Sequence record: OM386653.1
Reading direction: 5' to 3' (one strand)
DNA length: 64,000 nt
DNA from: Escherichia phage vB_EcoM_ESCO8
Both the position numbers and the translations under genes were made by a program. Of the stretch, positions 44,554 to 53,214 are shown in pieces (the first letter of the stretch is position 1; each line of letters opens with the position of its first letter). Below the pieces are notes generated by a model that saw nothing but the letters and a program-made list of their open reading frames with translations, searched no databases and was not told the origin of the DNA.

Positions 44554-46326
44554 GTGTCTTATGTTGTAAATAAATATGGGTATAACATTGATCTAAGTCA
44601 AGAAGGACATACTGGGTGTCCTCGTTGTATGAAAGGAGGGCGTGATCGATCACAAAACAATTTGATGGTATATGGCTTAGATGCCGATGAAGACCATCGA
44701 GGCGCACATTGTTTTTCTTGTGGCTTTACTATCCCTGATCAAAAATGGTTAAATGCACACGGCGAAGAAATTGAAGAGGAGGATATCTTGGGTAGTGAGT
44801 TTAATCCAGAAGTACATGATAAACTAAAAGCCAGCACTGGAACTAATCCAAAAGGTTATCGCGGTATTCGTGAAGATATCTCTAAGCCTTTCGGTGTACG
44901 TTATATGTACGATGAAGCTACTGGCGAAGTAATTTCAACACTATACCCTACAACTAAAGATTACAATATTGCTGGGTATAAACAACGTATCGATCCAAAA
45001 GATTTCTCGCATCCTATCGGTGAAACAGGAAAGGATTGTGATCTTTTTGGGGAGTTTAAATATCGTAACCACAGCGGTACTATTCTAATCGTTGGTGGTG
45101 AACACGATATGCTGGCTGCAACACAGATGCTAAAAGATTATAACAAGGGTGGTAAATATCCTGTTCCTGCTGTAGTATCTGGTACTTGTGGCGAAACATC
45201 TCTGCATAAGCAGCTTCAACATCGTTATAAATTCTTAGATCAATTTAAAAAGATTGTTCTATGTATGGATAATGATGAAGCTGGACGTGCAGCAGTTGAG
45301 AAATGTGTTAAAATCTTACCACGTAATAAAGTTTACGTGATGGAACTAACGGATGTTAAAGATCCTAACCAGGCACTAGTAGAAGGAAAAATTGATCATT
45401 TTATTGATCGCTTTTTCAAAGCTAAATTGTACACACCTGCTGGTGTTTACGCTTCTAACGTACTGTATGAAGCAGCCTTGGAATGCCTGGAAGCTAAAAT
45501 GATCACCCTTCCTCCATTCATGCGTGTTGCTTCTAATATGTTAGGTGGAGGCTTGGTAGAAGAAGAAATTACTGTTATACTTGCAAAAACAAGTATCGGT
45601 AAGACACTGTTGGTTAACGAGATTACAAAGCACATTATTCTTGCACATCCAGAACATACTCTTGGTATTTTATCTTTGGAGGCAACGTATAAGAAGTATT
45701 CTCGTAACTTACTGTCTTCATTCTTGCATATCCCTCTTCACCGTAAAACGAAAGAAGAGAAGGAAAAGATTTTAAAAGATAATGAAGAAAAGATTCGTGA
45801 TTTTTACGAACGAGAAGATGGAACACCACGTTTCTATGTTTGTGATGATCGTGGAGCTAACGTAGATGTGATTAAAGAGAAGGTTCTGGAAATGATTATT
45901 TATTTCGGAGTAACCATTCTTGTTATCGACCCTTATTCTGATTTGCTTTCTGGTATGGACGTGTCACAACAAGAGGAACTTGCGACGTGGCTGAAACGCA
46001 TTATGAAAGAGTATGCAATAACCATTGTTGTAATTTCACACGTTAAAAAGTCTTCTAACAATAGTAATGAACATATTGTAGAAGATGATGCAATGGGTAG
46101 TAGCTTCCTTGCTAAAGGTGCTGGTATCACAATTGCGCTGGAGCGTGATAAACAAGCTGAAGATCCTATGGAACGTAACCGCACATATTGCTACATTCTA
46201 AAGAACCGTGAGTTCTCAGAGACTGGTGCAGCAGGTAGTTTCTTCTATGAGATTAAAACAGCTACACTTCACGATTACGATCAATACACAAGTAACCCAG
46301 AGAACATCTCTGCTGGTTCTTATTAA
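44554..46326 (+). CDS. Bifunctional DNA primase-helicase (T7 gp4-like)
   Basis: GTG start; N-terminal Zn ribbon CPRC...CFSCGF, TOPRIM-like GGEHDM and CMDNDEAGR, C-terminal helicase Walker A KTSIGKT and Walker B VIDPY. Confidence 0.8.
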   Translation: MSYVVNKYGYNIDLSQEGHTGCPRCMKGGRDRSQNNLMVYGLDADEDHRGAHCFSCGFTIPDQKWLNAHGEEIEEEDILGSEFNPEVHDKLKASTGTNPKGYRGIREDISKPFGVRYMYDEATGEVISTLYPTTKDYNIAGYKQRIDPKDFSHPIGETGKDCDLFGEFKYRNHSGTILIVGGEHDMLAATQMLKDYNKGGKYPVPAVVSGTCGETSLHKQLQHRYKFLDQFKKIVLCMDNDEAGRAAVEKCVKILPRNKVYVMELTDVKDPNQALVEGKIDHFIDRFFKAKLYTPAGVYASNVLYEAALECLEAKMITLPPFMRVASNMLGGGLVEEEITVILAKTSIGKTLLVNEITKHIILAHPEHTLGILSLEATYKKYSRNLLSSFLHIPLHRKTKEEKEKILKDNEEKIRDFYEREDGTPRFYVCDDRGANVDVIKEKVLEMIIYFGVTILVIDPYSDLLSGMDVSQQEELATWLKRIMKEYAITIVVISHVKKSSNNSNEHIVEDDAMGSSFLAKGAGITIALERDKQAEDPMERNRTYCYILKNREFSETGAAGSFFYEIKTATLHDYDQYTSNPENISAGSY

Positions 46327-46822: not shown

Positions 46823-49402
46823 ATGGGAGCTTTTACTTTCGACATTGAAAGTAACAACTTGCTTAATGACGAAAGTGTAGATTACTTGGCAAGTCCATAT
46901 CGTTTAAAAGATAGTTTTGCAATGCACTGTATTGTGTGCGAAAGTCATGATACTGGAGAGATTATTGCTTTCCATGATGGTGATAAATATCTTTTCGATG
47001 GTCGTCCGTATGTTGAGACTGACGGAAAGTATGAATACCGACTGGAGGAATATGAGCATTTAGAATATACCCATTTCCCTCTTAAAGATTTTCCTGATTT
47101 TGTAAATGGAACAGGTAAATTTAAAGGTAATTCAAACTATAAAATTACCAAAGTAGTTGGACATAACATCATTAACTTTGACTTACTGGCAATTAAATTA
47201 TTTTTTAAACTCAACTACAGTATTAAGTACAATACTTGGGGTAATAGTAACATTGAAATTTGTGATACTATGATCTTAAGTAAGACACTAAACCCTGATC
47301 GCTTCGGTGGTCATAGTCTGGCAGAGTTATCTAAGAAAGCTGGAGGGGATGTTAAAATTGATTTTAGAAAAAACATTCCTGAAACTGAAAGATTTAAAAC
47401 ATTTGCAGCAGATATGCTGTATTACTGTATTTACGATAACAAAGCTAACACCGCAGTGTTCCGTTATTTGATGGAAGAGTGGGGTGATTATAACAAGTGG
47501 TCTGAACCATTTAACTTAGAACAACGTGTAGCTGATATTATTACACGTCAAGAGCACCGTGGCTTTGCTTTCAATATGAAACAAGCAGAAGATAATATTC
47601 GTGATCTGGATGCTCGAATGGAAGCATGTCGTTTAGAGGCAGAACCTGTGCTACCTCCTAAACCTGCTACTAAAGGTTATTTGAAATCATTCATTCCACC
47701 TAAACTACAGTTTAAAAAGAATGGTGAACCTTCAAGTAACATGATAAAGTTTGCAGAGAAACATTCTGGTGAACTTGTACAAAAAGAAGATGGTTGGTGG
47801 CTATTTGCATTAGGTAAAGAGTTTAAACTACCTATTCCAGCAGAAGAACCTATTTGTGATCCTACAGTACCTGCTACTTTAGACGACACTACACATATTA
47901 AAAACTGGTTAGTTGGTTTAGGTTGGAGTCCATCTGAATATAAAGATAAAGATATCACTCTTAAATCTGGCACTAAGATTAAGAAAGATGAAGCACAAAT
48001 GGAGAAAGCTATTCGTGACTATGTTGATCAAACATTAGCATCTAACTTCTGCCAGGACAGATGTGATCATCTGGAGTGCACACCAGAAACTTTGGAATGG
48101 AAACTAAGAGATCGTATTGCTAAAGCTAAAGGTCGTGGTGTTAAAGTGCTTACGAACCCTTCCTTTACAAAAGGGCAAGAGAAAGATATTTGTCCTAACT
48201 TGGAAGCACTAGGTGAAAAGTTTCCTTATGCTACGCAGATTGTGCAGTATCTTACGTATAAACACCGTAGGAACTCTATTCTAGGGGGTGGTGCTGATTG
48301 GGAAGAAGATGAAGAGGATTACGATAAAGGTTATCTGGCAGCAGTAAGGGCTGATGGTCGTATACCAACTCCTGCTGCAACGTGTGATGCAGCTACGTCT
48401 CGTATGAAACATAGGCTAGTAGCAAATATCCCACGTGTAACATCTCTGTACGGATATGAAATGCGTAACTTATTTGGTGTAGAAGTTCCAAAATACTTCC
48501 AAATTGGTTATGACTTTGATTCTCTTGAGGCAAAAATAGAATCACACTACTGTTGGCGGTACGAGCAGGAACCACACGAATATTGTAATGCTCTGTTATT
48601 GGAAAAACCTAATGACGTTCATACAATGATGGCTCGACGTATTTCTGACACTATTGGTCGTAAGTTTGAACGAAGCCCTGCTAAATCTGTTAAGTATGGT
48701 ATTACTTATGGTGCTCAAGCTGCAAAAGTAGCAAAAACTATAGGTAGTGATATGTATACAGGACAGCTTGTATACGATGCTTTCTGGGAAGCTGCAAAAC
48801 CTCTTGCGCTTCTTAAAGAACGTCTGCATGACTTTTGGGTTAAAACAGGTAAGAAATACATTCTGGGTATTGATGGTAGGAAAGTACCTACACGATCTGC
48901 ACACGCAATACTTAACTCTCTGTTCCAGAGTGGTGGTGTTATTTGTGCAAAAAGAGCAATGGTTATCTACGACGATCTTATCGAAGAAGAAGGATTAGCT
49001 GTTGACTTTTTTGTTGATGACTGGAAAAATAAGTCATTCGTTCAACAAATGATTGCATATCACGATGAAGCACAGCTTGAAGTAACTCGTGATCTGGTGC
49101 ATTTTAAATGGTTCTCTAAAGAATCTTTAGGTTGGACTCAAGTTGATGATCCAGAAGAACAAAAGAAAATTGATAAAGAATGTTTGGATAAAGTTAATGC
49201 CTGGAAAGAAGAGGAAGAGAAACGTACTGGCAAGATTTGGGCTAACGTACATGAATCTCCGAAAGGTGGTTGGTTTACAGCCTACAGTCGTGCTGGAGAA
49301 TTAGCATCTATCGCTGTTAATAAAGCTGGTGAGTATTACAATCTTAATGTACCTCTCACTGCTGGTTACGATGTTGGTAACTCATGGGCGTCTTGTCACT
49401 GA
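46823..49402 (+). CDS. DNA polymerase, family A, with 3'-5' exonuclease domain
   Basis: 859 aa; exo I FDIESNNL; pol motif A GYDFDSLEAKI, motif B RSPAKSVKYGITYG, motif C AYHDEAQLEV. Confidence 0.85.
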   Translation: MGAFTFDIESNNLLNDESVDYLASPYRLKDSFAMHCIVCESHDTGEIIAFHDGDKYLFDGRPYVETDGKYEYRLEEYEHLEYTHFPLKDFPDFVNGTGKFKGNSNYKITKVVGHNIINFDLLAIKLFFKLNYSIKYNTWGNSNIEICDTMILSKTLNPDRFGGHSLAELSKKAGGDVKIDFRKNIPETERFKTFAADMLYYCIYDNKANTAVFRYLMEEWGDYNKWSEPFNLEQRVADIITRQEHRGFAFNMKQAEDNIRDLDARMEACRLEAEPVLPPKPATKGYLKSFIPPKLQFKKNGEPSSNMIKFAEKHSGELVQKEDGWWLFALGKEFKLPIPAEEPICDPTVPATLDDTTHIKNWLVGLGWSPSEYKDKDITLKSGTKIKKDEAQMEKAIRDYVDQTLASNFCQDRCDHLECTPETLEWKLRDRIAKAKGRGVKVLTNPSFTKGQEKDICPNLEALGEKFPYATQIVQYLTYKHRRNSILGGGADWEEDEEDYDKGYLAAVRADGRIPTPAATCDAATSRMKHRLVANIPRVTSLYGYEMRNLFGVEVPKYFQIGYDFDSLEAKIESHYCWRYEQEPHEYCNALLLEKPNDVHTMMARRISDTIGRKFERSPAKSVKYGITYGAQAAKVAKTIGSDMYTGQLVYDAFWEAAKPLALLKERLHDFWVKTGKKYILGIDGRKVPTRSAHAILNSLFQSGGVICAKRAMVIYDDLIEEEGLAVDFFVDDWKNKSFVQQMIAYHDEAQLEVTRDLVHFKWFSKESLGWTQVDDPEEQKKIDKECLDKVNAWKEEEEKRTGKIWANVHESPKGGWFTAYSRAGELASIAVNKAGEYYNLNVPLTAGYDVGNSWASCH

Positions 49403-49429: not shown

Positions 49430-50026
49430 ATGCTTACCGTATATGGTGAAGGTATTAATGATTTGGAAGGCGAGAGTACGCTACCTGGTAGTAAGAAACT
49501 AACGCCGCATTATATGAAATGGATGGCTATGTTGGGGAGGTGTTACTCCCCTTGTCAACAAGAACGTGATCCTTGTTATAATGGGGTGACGGTTTGTGAA
49601 GAATGGAAACTGTTCTCCAATTTCTACTCCTGGTTGCAAACTTGGGATAACTGGGAAAACTTAGAACTTGATAAAGATATTATAGGAGGGAGAGTTTACT
49701 CTCCCGATACCTGTCTTTTAGTAACAGGAGATCTTAACAAGTTCTTAGCTTATAGAGTAAGTAAAAGATCTCATGGGACTATGGTAGGATGTAGTTACGA
49801 AAAAGATCGTAAAAAGTATAAAGCCCATATTCAACGTGATGGACGTATTATAACGCTGGGACGTTTTAATACTGAAATTGAAGCGCATCTTTGCTGGTTG
49901 AAAGCTAAGGCAGAGCAGCTTACAAAATTCTTTGAAACTGAAGATGAAAGAGTTGTTCCACATCTTAAAGCACTATATAATGAAATGCTTGAGTATGTAG
50001 AACAACACAAAGAGTGGACACGATAG
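49430..50026 (+). CDS. AP2-domain DNA-binding protein (homing-endonuclease-associated type)
   Basis: 198 aa; GCSYEKDRKKYKAHIQRDGRIITLGRFNTEIEAH matches AP2/HNH-associated DNA-binding module; catalytic HNH motif not identified. Confidence 0.45.
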   Translation: MLTVYGEGINDLEGESTLPGSKKLTPHYMKWMAMLGRCYSPCQQERDPCYNGVTVCEEWKLFSNFYSWLQTWDNWENLELDKDIIGGRVYSPDTCLLVTGDLNKFLAYRVSKRSHGTMVGCSYEKDRKKYKAHIQRDGRIITLGRFNTEIEAHLCWLKAKAEQLTKFFETEDERVVPHLKALYNEMLEYVEQHKEWTR

Positions 50027-50671: not shown

Positions 50672-51070
50672 ATGACAGATAATCGTTCTAAAATCTTAGT
50701 CGAGACGTTCTACAGTAGAGAAACTAACCGTCTTGAGCTAACTAAAAAAGATGTTGAACCTCAAGATAATACCTTTTTTATTCAAATACTATGTCTCTTT
50801 GGTGGATACAACCGTTTAACAGTGCGGGTAGAAAACAAAGAGATATCTGAAACCACTATCACAAAACGTGAGCTTATGTTACTACAGGATACAATACGAG
50901 ATGTTTTGGATAATCCTGGAAAAGCAAAAGTAATTAACCTTGGTGGAGAAAAGATACAAATCCTCCATTTCGAAAGTGGTGAAATAGGATTTGGTATTGG
51001 TCTTGGTAAATACCTGTTGGAAGAAACTGACGCTACTCTTTTACGAGAGTTTTGTGTTAAAGTAATGTAA
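50672..51070 (+). CDS. hypothetical protein
   Basis: ORF track 132 aa. Confidence 0.5.
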   Translation: MTDNRSKILVETFYSRETNRLELTKKDVEPQDNTFFIQILCLFGGYNRLTVRVENKEISETTITKRELMLLQDTIRDVLDNPGKAKVINLGGEKIQILHFESGEIGFGIGLGKYLLEETDATLLREFCVKVM

Positions 51071-51086
51071 TTATAGAGGAGAATTT

Positions 51087-52034
51087 ATGCCAGTAATTAA
51101 TTCTGAAATCGACCGTCGTACTAAAAAAGAAGCATTCTGGGCTGAAGGTATCGTTGAATATGTCAAACTGGATAAGTTTGATGAAATGAAAGTCTCTTAT
51201 ATTAAGGTTGCAGGTCAGCCAGATAAGAAAATTGAATCAACTCACAAAGCATCTCTGCTTATTAAAGAGAAAGGTGCTAGTGCTGATGATAAAGGTGTTT
51301 GGGTTAGCCTAGGTGAAGTTAAACTGCATCCAGAACATGAAAACCTGCAAGTTAAAGATGGTGACAAGTGGGTTACTATCGAAAAAGGTGTAGAACTAAC
51401 TATGGATGTTAAACCTTCTGAATGGAATGGCAAAACATACTACAATTCCTCTAAAGGTAAAATCACTATTCTTTCAACAGAAGGTGTTCAGCAAGCACAA
51501 TCTTCTTCAAAAGGTGGAAATAAGCCATCTAATAACGAAGGTAGCAAGCCTAACTACAAAAAACGTGATACCGTAGGGATTGAAACAGGACACGCTGTAA
51601 ACGGCGCTCTGGAGCTTCTACGTGCTGGTGTGAAAGGTGATGCTTTCGACTTGGCTGGTGTGGTACAATCTGCAACTGTTACTCTGAAAGCAGAAATTGC
51701 TAAAGATCGTGGCGTTGATGTGACTGACTATGATCTTGGTGCTTCAGTTGGACACGCAATTCTTAACGCTTGTCGTGATCATACAGGTAAAACTGTAACG
51801 GCAGAAGAGATTATTGAAGCTGCTCGTGAAGTTCTTGCTTTGTCTGATAAAGTAGCTGCTGCTATCCGTGGAATGTCTACCCCAGTACAAGAAGTTAAGA
51901 AAGAAACTAAAAAAGTAGAGAAGAAAGAGCCAGCACCGAAAGAACCAGAACCTGTTGTTCAAGATTTCGATGATGATATCCCATTTGCTCCTATTGGTTT
52001 GCAGTATGGTCGAAACTTCCTGCACTGTTTCTAA
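51087..52034 (+). CDS. SSB-like protein with internal DFDDDIPF motif
   Basis: 315 aa; DFDDDIPF (E. coli SSB C-terminal tip) located 15 residues before C-terminus; context among replication genes. Confidence 0.45.
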   Translation: MPVINSEIDRRTKKEAFWAEGIVEYVKLDKFDEMKVSYIKVAGQPDKKIESTHKASLLIKEKGASADDKGVWVSLGEVKLHPEHENLQVKDGDKWVTIEKGVELTMDVKPSEWNGKTYYNSSKGKITILSTEGVQQAQSSSKGGNKPSNNEGSKPNYKKRDTVGIETGHAVNGALELLRAGVKGDAFDLAGVVQSATVTLKAEIAKDRGVDVTDYDLGASVGHAILNACRDHTGKTVTAEEIIEAAREVLALSDKVAAAIRGMSTPVQEVKKETKKVEKKEPAPKEPEPVVQDFDDDIPFAPIGLQYGRNFLHCF

Positions 52035-52056: not shown

Positions 52057-52083
52057 AAGGAGCCTAACGGCTCCTTTTCTTTG
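52057..52083 (+). terminator. Rho-independent terminator
   Basis: AAGGAGCC-taac-GGCTCCTT followed by TTCTTTG. Confidence 0.6.
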
Positions 52084-52094
52084 AAGGAGATATA

Positions 52095-52826
52095 ATGAGC
52101 GAATTTGTAAACAACACCGCGTTAAACTACCTGCAAACCCTCGAAAGCAATAGTGTAGATTTGATTCTTACTGACCCACCATATGCTATTTCTCGTGACA
52201 CAAATTTTCAATCTGGAGAGCCTACTGGAAAAGATACAGATAGATTCCGTGTATCTTACAACTTTGGGGATTGGGATGTTGTAGATATTCCTTACTTTAA
52301 AGAAGTATTCAAAGAAGCCTATAGGGTGCTTAGAAAAGGTGGTACTTGCATAGTTTGGTATGATATCTGGAAGATCCAGGAGCTACGTGAAATCCTTGAA
52401 CCGCTTGGTTTTCGTATGTTCCGTACTATTGAATGGATTAAAACAAACCCTGTACCCATCAACAGTGGTGTTAACTACCTTAGTAACGCTAAAGAGATGG
52501 CTATTGTTTGTGTTAAAGGTTCTAAGCCAACCTTCAATGCCTCCTACCACAAGGGTGTGTTTGAGTATCCTATCTATCAAGGAGCAGATCGTTTTCATCC
52601 GACACAAAAACACTTGACTTTGTTTTGTGACCTTATTAATATACATACCAACGAAGGAGATGTAGTCTTAGACTTCTTCTCTGGAAGTGCAACAACACAA
52701 GTTGCGGCACTTTTAACAGGTAGAGAATACTTAGGCTGTGAAGCCGATGTAAATATTTTTAAGCAAGCGGAGGAACGACTAAATGAGTACACTGAACAGC
52801 AAAATCACCCTGAAAGCACTGATTAA
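52095..52826 (+). CDS. DNA methyltransferase, beta-class amino-MTase (N6A or N4C)
   Basis: 243 aa; motif IV LILTDPPYAI near N-terminus, motif I DFFSGSATT near C-terminus (beta-class order). Confidence 0.7.
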   Translation: MSEFVNNTALNYLQTLESNSVDLILTDPPYAISRDTNFQSGEPTGKDTDRFRVSYNFGDWDVVDIPYFKEVFKEAYRVLRKGGTCIVWYDIWKIQELREILEPLGFRMFRTIEWIKTNPVPINSGVNYLSNAKEMAIVCVKGSKPTFNASYHKGVFEYPIYQGADRFHPTQKHLTLFCDLINIHTNEGDVVLDFFSGSATTQVAALLTGREYLGCEADVNIFKQAEERLNEYTEQQNHPESTD

Positions 52827-53214
52827 CAACGGTATGAACCTGGACTCTGGTCTGTCTCCAAAGATTTCTATGGCACGACTAGAACAAGTTACTGGTCTTC
52901 GTCAAGTAAGTAATGGCGGTAAGATTATTCGTGATGACGCTGTACCTTTTAATAAATTTCAGATTGAACGTCATTACGATCCTGTAACTGCAAGTCTCAC
53001 TGGTGTAACTTTCTCAGGTTATCGTACTGCCGGATACCAACGTAAGGTTGTAGCTGAACGTATTAAAAATCGCAAACAGAAAATTGCAACATTGAAGAAA
53101 CTAGTAGAGAAAGATGTTTCAGAACTTCTTAACCTGTATGAAACTCTTGAGACAAAAGGTGAAGATCATAAACTCTTCTCTAAAGAAGATGTGAGCGTAA
53201 TTTTCACTGATTAA
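52783..53214 (+). CDS. hypothetical protein (start uncertain)
   Basis: ORF track 143 aa; overlaps MTase 3' end by 44 nt, later ATG possible. Confidence 0.4.
   Translation: MSTLNSKITLKALINNGMNLDSGLSPKISMARLEQVTGLRQVSNGGKIIRDDAVPFNKFQIERHYDPVTASLTGVTFSGYRTAGYQRKVVAERIKNRKQKIATLKKLVEKDVSELLNLYETLETKGEDHKLFSKEDVSVIFTD

What the first reader, a model, noticed from the sequence alone, without database searches (positions are those of the whole stretch)
51087..52034. SSB-like protein carrying the E. coli SSB tip motif DFDDDIPF internally rather than at the C-terminus
The motif that host SSB uses at its extreme C-terminus to recruit partner proteins is present but followed by 15 more residues. This could be a mimic that competes for SSB-interacting host proteins, or an SSB whose tip is exposed after processing.
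Basis: seen in the sequence. Interest (0 to 1): 0.5.

Follow-up and report, generated by a model that had tools for sequence, protein, structure and literature searches.

The report
Phage SSB with capped tip motif
This coliphage's replication-fork DNA-binding protein carries the bacterial SSB "tip" peptide followed by a 15-residue cap; the cap is a conserved, portable module found on many unrelated phage DNA-binding proteins, I found no description of it, and its partner is unknown.

Summary
ORF 51087-52034 (+) encodes 315 aa, with DFDDDIPF at aa 293-300 followed by APIGLQYGRNFLHCF and a stop.

The protein is a non-Pfam, SSB-like protein (PHROG 4477). It is predicted to have an N-terminal OB fold, a four-helix domain and a disordered tail. 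It lies in a T7-like replication module of a Justusliebigvirus-type myophage. A Vequintavirus homologue, Bas52_0087, is the published trigger of the DRT10 defence system.

About 80% of homologues, including Bas52_0087, end exactly at ...IPF. The 15 extra residues are not a readthrough accident. They form a conserved module (A-P-[IV]-G-L-Q-Y, then 7-10 residues ending hydrophobic, 14-17 aa in all).

- **Selection:** 5 synonymous and 0 non-synonymous codon changes against a 63%-identical orthologue.
- **Carriers:** at least eight sequence families of phage ssDNA-binding proteins and one primase-helicase, in phages and prophages of Gammaproteobacteria.
- **Turnover:** gained or lost at least 15 times within this family, by recombination breaking exactly after the Phe codon.

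Canonical SSB partners grip the terminal Phe carboxylate, so a capped tip cannot be a plain SSB mimic. My best inference is an extended docking peptide for an unidentified partner, probably a host protein. Processing and masking remain untested rivals. I found no description of the cap in the literature I searched.

The parts
51076..51081 (+). Shine-Dalgarno-like GAGGAG, 5 nt upstream of the ATG
   Evidence: read directly from the sequence
51087..52034 (+). CDS of the SSB-like protein (315 aa plus stop), PHROG 4477
   Evidence: PHROG 4477 E=2.5e-101; 100% aa identity to annotated genes in phages JLBYU50, Eryne, ESCO32 and BME3, some labelled single-stranded DNA-binding protein
51087..51476 (+). 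N-terminal OB-fold domain (aa 1-130)
51477..51566 (+). disordered linker 1 (aa 131-160)
   Evidence: pLDDT 47-68
51567..51866 (+). four-helix domain (aa 161-260) opening with the near-invariant D161-x2-G-x-ETGHA-x-N motif
   Evidence: helices 163-179, 186-208, 215-230 and 239-260, pLDDT above 90; conserved columns; D161 aligns with D252 of Bas52_0087, a DRT10 escape site; no significant PDB fold match
51867..51962 (+). disordered K/E/P-rich linker 2 (aa 261-292)
   Evidence: pLDDT 57-66; the most divergent segment against the ECO340P2 orthologue (18 of 32 codons non-synonymous)
51963..51986 (+). SSB-Ct-like tip DFDDDIPF (aa 293-300), internal in this protein
   Evidence: matches the C-termini of E. 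coli SSB chains in the PDB (1eqq_A, 7f2n_A)
51987..52031 (+). 15-aa cap module APIGLQYGRNFLHCF (aa 301-315)
   Evidence: the same module is on unrelated proteins; 10 identical, 5 synonymous and 0 non-synonymous codons against ECO340P2; consensus from 99 distinct tails
52057..52086 (+). intrinsic-terminator-like hairpin and T-run after the gene
   Evidence: a similar hairpin follows the long-form gene of ECO340P2 but not the short-form gene of ESCO25

Best explanation
The ORF encodes the phage's replisome-associated ssDNA-binding protein. It has an OB fold, a four-helix domain and a flexible tail. The C-terminal end is an extended version of the bacterial SSB C-terminal tip. The acidic D-I-P-F core is kept, but it is followed by a conserved 14-17-residue cap (A-P-[IV]-G-L-Q-Y, a variable stretch, then a hydrophobic C-terminus).

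Shown: the cap is a discrete module under purifying selection. It is carried by many unrelated phage ssDNA-binding scaffolds and by one primase-helicase, and it is swapped in and out by recombination that breaks right after the Phe codon.

Inferred: the cap removes the free Phe carboxylate that canonical SSB-interacting proteins need. The whole roughly 20-residue peptide (D-I-P-F-A-P-I-G-L-Q-Y...hydrophobic C-terminus) therefore probably acts as one docking motif that tethers a different, or a narrower, partner to phage ssDNA or to the fork.

The same peptide sits on scaffolds from 37-kb lambdoid prophages to 150-kb lytic myophages, which have unrelated replication and recombination genes. The partner is therefore most parsimoniously a host component of Gammaproteobacteria rather than a phage protein.
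For: - **SSB-like identity:** OB fold. Position next to a Toprim+DnaB_C primase-helicase and a family A polymerase. Homology to Bas52_0087 in both domains (E=2e-15 and 8e-15; D252 and Y351 confirmed).
- **The cap is a module:** tblastn of tip plus cap finds 194 phage records with at least 80% coverage. Carriers are canonical PF00436 SSBs, phrog_44, phrog_7364, phrog_9002/DUF669, phrog_2544/32668, phrog_3284, this family, and the KpS8 primase-helicase (DnaB_C).
- **Conservation:** in 99 distinct tails, +1 is A in 93, +2 is P in 91, +4 is G in 94, +5 is L in 95, +6 is Q in 80 and +7 is Y in 81. Length is 14-15 aa in 85 of 99, and the last residue is hydrophobic.
- **Selection:** against the 63%-identical orthologue of ECO340P2, the cap shows 5 synonymous and 0 non-synonymous codon changes, while the OB domain has 53 non-synonymous changes in 124 aligned codons.
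- **Swapping:** at least 15 state changes on a tree of 99 family members, and cap subtypes do not follow the core phylogeny. Similarity between sister genomes breaks just after the Phe codon.
- **Split arrangement:** in KpS8 the SSB-like protein has a bare tip and the primase-helicase carries tip plus cap.
- **Host link:** true genomic hits are all in Gammaproteobacteria apart from one Parasphingorhabdus MAG contig. Full matches to the '...QYPALLMCM' subtype among cultured phages are confined to Vibrio and Aeromonas phages of very different types.
- **Carboxylate requirement:** the terminal Phe carboxylate is needed in known complexes (PMC6393309, and my own knowledge of the ExoI, RecQ, chi and PriA complexes).
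- **No self-docking:** the tail has pLDDT 49-59 and is not predicted to dock on the protein's own domains.
Against: - No partner was identified, and no binding was tested.
- Neighbourhood analysis of 48 loci found no universally co-occurring gene. This fits a host partner but is negative evidence only.
- The tracking of cap subtypes by host clade could reflect gene flow limited by host range. It is also not strict: Vibrio phage K433 has a type I-like cap.
- Sister phages do well with a bare tip (Bas48, 52, 53, 56, 58), so the cap is dispensable in some settings.
- The gain/loss count rests on a quick neighbour-joining tree.
Confidence: 0.5

Rival explanations
1. Pro-form. The cap is removed by a host or phage protease after Phe300, releasing a canonical ...DDDIPF-COOH tip at a chosen time or place.
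For: The tip stays as conserved in capped proteins as in bare-tip ones. The F|A-P junction is almost invariant, and the cap has a tightly fixed length and a hydrophobic C-terminus, as protease tags often do. Bare-tip and capped orthologues are interchangeable in sister phages.
Against: No cleavage evidence exists and no candidate protease is known. ATP-dependent proteases that read C-terminal tags degrade processively and would not stop exactly at Phe (established knowledge). Seven contiguous near-invariant residues exceed what a simple cleavage site needs. The primase-helicase of KpS8 also carries the module.
Confidence: 0.15
2. Mask or counter-defence. The cap blocks the tip, so the phage protein does not recruit or titrate host SSB partners such as ExoI, or is not read by defence systems tuned to that axis such as DRT10. 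Presence or absence is toggled in an arms race.
For: The bare-tip homologue Bas52_0087 is required to trigger DRT10, and ExoI dosage modulates that defence. DRT10 also restricts Stephanstirmvirinae. There are at least 15 gains or losses in one family. Closely related BASEL phages differ only in this feature.
Against: Any extension would mask the carboxylate, so masking alone does not explain the strong sequence and length conservation of the cap, nor the retention of DDDIPF upstream. No phenotype data compare capped and bare-tip phages.
Confidence: 0.2
3. Plain competitive mimic of host SSB. The internal DFDDDIPF binds the usual SSB-interacting proteins despite the trailing residues.
For: The eight tip residues are identical to the E. 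coli SSB C-terminus. The tail is disordered and accessible.
Against: Known partner pockets use the free carboxylate of the terminal Phe (PMC6393309). The idea does not explain the conservation of the cap.
Confidence: 0.1
4. Neutral by-product. The extra codons are a passenger of 3'-end cassette exchange (tail-fibre swaps, homing-endonuclease co-conversion) and have no function of their own.
For: In Phapecoctavirus the swapped block runs from the cap through the distal tail-fibre gene. In Vequintavirus a putative homing endonuclease ORF overlaps the cap codons, and such ORFs abut the gene in several genera.
Against: There are 0 non-synonymous against 5 synonymous changes in the cap. Near-invariant residues recur across 99 distinct tails on unrelated proteins with different codons and different downstream genes. 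In the window the cap is followed by a terminator and a methyltransferase gene, not an endonuclease.
Confidence: 0.05

Closest known systems
Bas52_0087 of Escherichia phage RudolfGeigy (Vequintavirus), the SSB-like trigger of the DRT10/UG17 defence system (bioRxiv 10.64898/2026.04.29.721553)
   Same: Same protein family: OB domain 42% identical and helical domain 33% identical. The acidic disordered tail carries the FDDDIPF motif. The escape residue D252 corresponds to the near-invariant D161 here. The position in a comparable replication region is similar.
   Different: Bas52_0087 is 408 aa, has an extra inserted beta domain, and ends exactly at ...DDDIPF. The window protein lacks the insert and carries the 15-aa cap. 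No experiment has been done on a capped member.
E. coli SSB C-terminal tip (SSB-Ct, DDDIPF) and its interactome
   Same: The eight-residue motif is identical. It sits at the end of a disordered linker attached to an OB-fold ssDNA binder.
   Different: There is no PF00436 match. The motif is not at the C-terminus, so the Phe carboxylate used by known partners is absent. A four-helix domain is present.
T7 gp2.5 / gp4 C-terminal tails (both acidic, both ending in Phe, both binding T7 DNA polymerase; own knowledge of the Richardson-lab literature)
   Same: The replisome is T7-like, with a Toprim+DnaB_C primase-helicase and a family A polymerase. One shared tail peptide is used by both an SSB-type protein and a primase-helicase within the wider phage group (KpS8). 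The last residue here is also Phe.
   Different: No sequence or fold match to gp2.5 was found. The cap is hydrophobic rather than acidic. The same cap also occurs in temperate phages that encode no polymerase.
Prophage and phage canonical SSBs annotated simply as 'ssb' (for example mEp235 gp31, Vibrio phage Val-yong3 SSB)
   Same: They carry the same tip-plus-cap module. The mEp235-type 3' end is present at full length in 169 of 5426 complete E. coli genomes.
   Different: Their DNA-binding domain is the classical PF00436 fold, unrelated in sequence to the window protein.

Membership tests
Bacterial SSB family (Pfam PF00436) | Match to the PF00436 profile | tested here: not met
   No Pfam family at E<=1; no PDB sequence match at E<=10
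Bacterial SSB family (Pfam PF00436) | OB-fold DNA-binding domain | tested here: met
Bacterial SSB family (Pfam PF00436) | Acidic tip ending in Pro-Phe at the extreme C-terminus | tested here: not met
   The tip is present at aa 293-300, but 15 residues follow it
Bacterial SSB family (Pfam PF00436) | Binds ssDNA; forms a homotetramer | not testable with these tools
   Needs EMSA or fluorescence titration, and SEC-MALS
PHROG 4477 / Bas52_0087-like SSB-like proteins | Profile match over the whole protein | tested here: met
   phrog_4477 E=2.5e-101; the profile ends at aa 300, which is the tip
PHROG 4477 / Bas52_0087-like SSB-like proteins | OB domain plus helical domain with the D-x2-G-x-ETGH motif; homology to Bas52_0087 | tested here: met
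   blastp E=8e-15 (OB) and 2e-15 (helical); conserved columns
PHROG 4477 / Bas52_0087-like SSB-like proteins | Triggers DRT10 | not testable with these tools
   Shown only for Bas52_0087. DRT10 restricts Stephanstirmvirinae, but the trigger in those phages is not mapped
Tip-plus-cap tail module (grouping defined here) | D-[IVT]-P-F directly followed by A-P-[IV]-G-L-Q-Y | tested here: met
   DDDIPF-APIGLQY in the window; consensus from 99 distinct tails
   15 residues ending ...LHCF; length distribution 14:40, 15:45, 16-17:14
T7 gp2.5-type phage SSB | Sequence or fold homology to gp2.5 | tested here: not met
T7 gp2.5-type phage SSB | Tail binds the phage polymerase or helicase | not testable with these tools
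   Needs pull-down or SPR with the window's polymerase (46823-49402) and primase-helicase (44554-46326)

The most novel reading that the evidence does not exclude
The tip-plus-cap peptide is a second, so far unrecognised docking code alongside the classical SSB-Ct. Phages of Gammaproteobacteria attach it to whatever ssDNA-binding or fork protein they have, in order to recruit or neutralise one specific host factor. Switching between capped and bare tips is a fast evolutionary lever on replication, recombination and defence sensing, including the DRT10/ExoI axis.
Probability: 0.35. Interest if true: 0.75.

Novelty: new variant of a known kind. Interest (0 to 1): 0.6.

Why it matters
- **Rule it bends:** the SSB C-terminal tip is the textbook hub that brings more than a dozen genome-maintenance enzymes to ssDNA. 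Its recognition is understood to depend on the terminal Phe carboxylate. A conserved, selected cap on that tip, spread over many phage SSB families and a primase-helicase, would be a new way of using or disabling the hub.
- **Prevalence:** capped ssb genes are present in 169 of 5426 complete E. coli genomes, where they are annotated as ordinary ssb.
- **Ready test material:** sister phages of the BASEL collection differ almost only in having the cap or not. A bare-tip member of this family is already a mapped trigger of the DRT10 defence system, whose proposed mechanism rests on the tip binding ExoI.
- **Practical use:** recombineering and phage engineering increasingly rely on SSB-tail compatibility.

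Tried and rejected
- **Sequence homology:** Pfam and PDB sequence searches of the whole protein returned nothing.
- **Literature:** literal-motif and keyword searches found no description of the cap.
- **Bas52_0087:** I first assumed it carried the cap because Bas49/50/54 do. Fetching MZ501102 showed that it ends at the tip, so the published 'C-terminal tip' description is correct for that protein.
- **Beta-clamp-binding motif (QL[SD]LF / QLxLxL):** considered for the cap and rejected, because the hydrophobic positions after Gln do not line up across cap subtypes. PIP-box and CaaX readings were rejected for the same reason.
- **Degron readings:** resemblance of some caps to ssrA (...YALYA) or to the SulA C-terminus was noted, but it is not general across the 99 tails.
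- **Phage-encoded partner by gene neighbourhood:** no universal neighbour was found. The methyltransferase adjacency seen in several loci is probably ordinary early-region synteny.
- **Vestige of cap codons after the stop in bare-tip genes:** seen only in Phapecoctavirus (9 of 11 nt) and not in four other genera, so it is too weak to polarise the change.
- **Genome contigs pattern scan:** about 9 chance hits were expected, and 4 of the 12 hits were indeed spurious.
- **Other copies in the window:** the window's own primase-helicase and other ORFs do not carry the module.

Full report
**1. The observation**

The window has one ORF at 51087..52034 on the + strand (ATG start, 315 aa). A GAGGAG sits 5 nt upstream of the ATG, and a hairpin with a T-run lies at 52057-52086. 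DFDDDIPF occupies aa 293-300 (nt 51963-51986). It is followed by APIGLQYGRNFLHCF and TAA. The degenerate DNA pattern for the eight residues occurs once in 64 kb, against an expectation of 0.00 from shuffles.

**2. What the protein is**

- **The phage.** The window comes from a Justusliebigvirus-like coliphage of about 147 kb. The protein is 100% identical to genes of phages JLBYU50, Eryne, outra and 'alia', some of which are annotated as single-stranded DNA-binding protein.
- **Sequence searches.** The protein has no Pfam match and no sequence relative in the PDB. It matches PHROG 4477 ('unknown function') at E=2.5e-101, and that profile ends at residue 300, the tip.
- **Predicted structure.** AlphaFold2 with a 65-sequence alignment gives a confident beta domain (aa 1-130), a disordered linker (131-160), a confident four-helix domain (163-260) and a disordered tail (261-315, pLDDT 49-66).
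- **Gene context.** The gene lies downstream of a Toprim+DnaB_C primase-helicase and a family A DNA polymerase, and upstream of an N6/N4 DNA methyltransferase. This is a T7-like replication module.

**3. Link to published work**

A 2026 preprint (10.64898/2026.04.29.721553) identified Bas52_0087 of a Vequintavirus as the phage factor needed to trigger the DRT10 (UG17) reverse-transcriptase defence. It described the protein as SSB-like with a C-terminal FDDDIPF tip and proposed interplay with ExoI/SbcB. The same system restricts Stephanstirmvirinae, the subfamily of this window's phage.

I fetched the gene (MZ501102). It is a homologue of the window protein in both domains (blastp E=8e-15 and 2e-15). 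It has D252 and Y351, as the paper states; D252 aligns with the near-invariant D161 here. It ends exactly at ...YSFDDDIPF. So the family is partly known, and the published member has a true terminal tip.

**4. The 15 extra residues are a module**

Among 99 family members retrieved, 78 end at ...[IVL]PF (P0089 has one extra residue, S) and 21 carry a 14-17-residue extension of one recognisable type. The same extension, always directly after a D-[IVT]-P-F tip, occurs on proteins that are unrelated in sequence:

- the canonical PF00436 SSB of lambdoid phage mEp235;
- many 40-56-kb viral contigs and Vibrio phages;
- phrog_44-type, phrog_7364-type and phrog_9002/DUF669-type SSBs;
- the phrog_2544/32668 and phrog_3284 families;
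- the DnaB-like primase-helicase of Klebsiella phage KpS8.

In KpS8 the SSB-like protein has the bare tip and the helicase has tip plus cap.

From 99 distinct tails the cap consensus is A(93)-P(91)-[IV](88)-G(94)-L(95)-Q(80)-Y(81), followed by a variable stretch ending in a hydrophobic residue. Length is 14 or 15 aa in 85 of 99. There are two subtypes:

- **Type I:** '...QY-x3-[FA]-[IL]-[HY]-x-[ILFV]'. This is the window's type, found in enterobacterial phages and some Vibrio phages.
- **Type II:** '...QY-[PR]-x-[LI]-L-x-[CAV]-[MIC]'. Among cultured phages, full matches were confined to Vibrio and Aeromonas phages of very different genome types.

In bacterial genomes (one per species), 8 true hits were found. 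They are canonical SSBs, seven in Gammaproteobacteria (Vibrio, Pseudoalteromonas, Oceanisphaera, Glaciecola, Providencia) and one on a Parasphingorhabdus MAG contig. The other 4 hits were chance matches, in line with the roughly 9 I estimated by chance for this degenerate pattern. The mEp235-type capped ssb 3' end is present at full length in 169 of 5426 complete E. coli genomes, annotated plainly as ssb. No PDB chain matches the cap part of the tail profile. Literal-motif and keyword searches of the paper library found no description of it.

**5. Selection and turnover**

Against the syntenic orthologue of Phapecoctavirus ECO340P2 (63% aa identity), codon changes by segment are as follows:

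| Segment | Identical codons | Synonymous | Non-synonymous |
|---|---|---|---|
| Cap | 10 | 5 | 0 |
| Tip | 6 | 2 | 0 |
| OB domain | 50 | 21 | 53 |
| Adjacent linker | 8 | 6 | 18 |

The cap is therefore translated and under purifying selection at the protein level.

On a neighbour-joining tree of the core regions, Fitch parsimony needs at least 15 changes of state. Identical cap subtypes sit on cores that are only 34-63% identical. This is a rough tree, so the number is indicative.

The mechanism of turnover is visible in sister genomes:

- ESCO25 (bare tip) and ECO340P2 (capped) are 99.2% identical up to about 10 nt past the Phe codon. About 1 kb is then unrelated, covering the cap, the terminator and the distal part of the convergent tail-fibre gene. 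Identity then returns to 94%.
- In Vequintavirus, megablast similarity stops at nt 1224 of 1272, which is the Phe codon, in the bare-tip relatives.
- BASEL phages Bas48/52/53/56/58 have the bare tip. Bas49/50/54 have the cap, with a putative homing-endonuclease ORF overlapping the cap codons.
- HNH/EndoVII-like ORFs also abut the gene in Bas58, Ro1 and ChuuTotoro.

The conserved tip-coding DNA thus acts as a recombination junction, and endonuclease-driven co-conversion may add to the turnover. That last point is an inference.

**6. How it most likely works**

Shown: the protein is an SSB-like protein of the replication module; the tip is internal; and the cap is a conserved, selected, portable module.

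Inferred: in the solved complexes of SSB-Ct with its partners, the terminal Phe binds through its ring and its free carboxylate (PMC6393309; ExoI, RecQ, chi and PriA from my own knowledge). A capped Phe cannot do that. Yet D-I-P-F is as conserved in capped as in bare tails, and it is contiguous with seven near-invariant cap residues.

The simplest reading is one extended docking peptive-like unit, with its own hydrophobic C-terminus, that selects a different or narrower partner than the classical tip. The same peptide is attached to many unrelated scaffolds in phages with unrelated replication and recombination genes. No neighbouring gene co-occurs universally, and the tail is not predicted to dock on its own protein. 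A host partner is therefore more parsimonious than a phage partner. The rough tracking of cap subtype with host clade points the same way, but it could also reflect gene flow limited by host range. I put this explanation at about 0.5.

**7. Rival explanations**

- **Pro-form cleaved after Phe (0.15).** Compatible with the invariant F|AP junction and the fixed length, but there is no evidence of cleavage and no plausible precise protease.
- **Mask or counter-defence toggle (0.2).** Attractive because a bare-tip homologue triggers DRT10 through an ExoI-related route and the feature flips often. Masking alone, however, does not explain why the cap sequence and the upstream tip are conserved.
- **Plain SSB mimic (0.1).** Disfavoured by the carboxylate requirement.
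- **Neutral passenger of cassette exchange (0.05).** Contradicted by the synonymous-only divergence and by conservation across families.

**8. Novelty and verdict**

The protein family and its SSB-like nature are already in the literature and in some annotations. The internal position of the tip in this phage is real. The new point is that the cap is a widespread, selected module that has gone unremarked and is annotated away as plain 'ssb'. I class it as a new variant of a known kind (an extended SSB-Ct), with interest 0.6. The function of the cap is not established here. The decisive experiments are simple and the natural test material (BASEL sister phages) exists.

Noticed in passing
window 49430-50026 (+): A 198-aa HNH-endonuclease-like ORF (phrog_953, E=2.5e-73) lies between the DNA polymerase and the nucleotidyltransferase genes. 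The otherwise collinear phage Eryne has only a 96-nt ORF there, so this looks like a free-standing homing-endonuclease insertion.
   Followed up: partly
window 51567-51602 (aa 161-172 of the SSB-like protein): A near-invariant motif, D-x2-G-x-E-T-G-H-A-x-N, opens the four-helix domain. D161 corresponds to D252 of Bas52_0087, whose D252V change lets the phage escape DRT10. The domain has no fold match and its role is unknown.
   Followed up: partly
window 50672-51070 (+): A 132-aa ORF (phrog_16560, unknown function) sits directly upstream of the SSB-like gene. A small ORF also occupies this position in Eryne and Phapecoctavirus (about 130 aa) and in rV5 (about 121 aa); homology between them was not tested. 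It may be a functional partner.
   Followed up: no
window 52095-52826 and 52783-53214 (+): An N6/N4 DNA methyltransferase gene lies immediately downstream, overlapped by 44 nt by a 143-aa ORF (phrog_20244). Methyltransferase genes also flank tail-bearing genes in KpS8, Vibrio phage K433 and 10 IMG/VR loci. This is probably ordinary early-region synteny; no control comparison was made.
   Followed up: no
P0147 (340 aa; metagenomic protein): The protein contains three internal copies of ERFDDD[IV]PFS, that is, repeated internal SSB-tip-like motifs in one polypeptide. It could be a multivalent decoy for tip-binding proteins.
   Followed up: no
L056-L058 (Bas50/54/49) 1544-1869; L080 (Bas58) 1636-2006; L074, L075: Putative homing-endonuclease (EndoVII/HNH-like) ORFs start within, or a few nucleotides after, the 3' end of the SSB-like gene in several Vequintavirinae genera. 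This suggests the conserved tip-coding DNA is a homing or recombination hotspot.
   Followed up: partly
phage records MG0656xx ('Campylobacter phage' A135, C2, D1 and others): These records are about 97% identical at the DNA level to the rV5-like coliphage gene. They are probably mislabelled or contaminant genomes rather than Campylobacter phages.
   Followed up: no
L044 2030-3934: A 634-aa ORF joins a portal-like protein to a Q-rich SSB tail with the cap. It is most likely an assembly or circular-permutation artefact of a short viral contig.
   Followed up: no
L054 2537-2555 and L072 (Phapecoctavirus bare-tip genes): After the stop codon the sequence TGATCTTATTG resembles the first cap codons T-GCT-CCT-ATT-G (9 of 11 nt). 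It may be a vestige of a lost cap. It was not seen in four other genera.
   Followed up: yes
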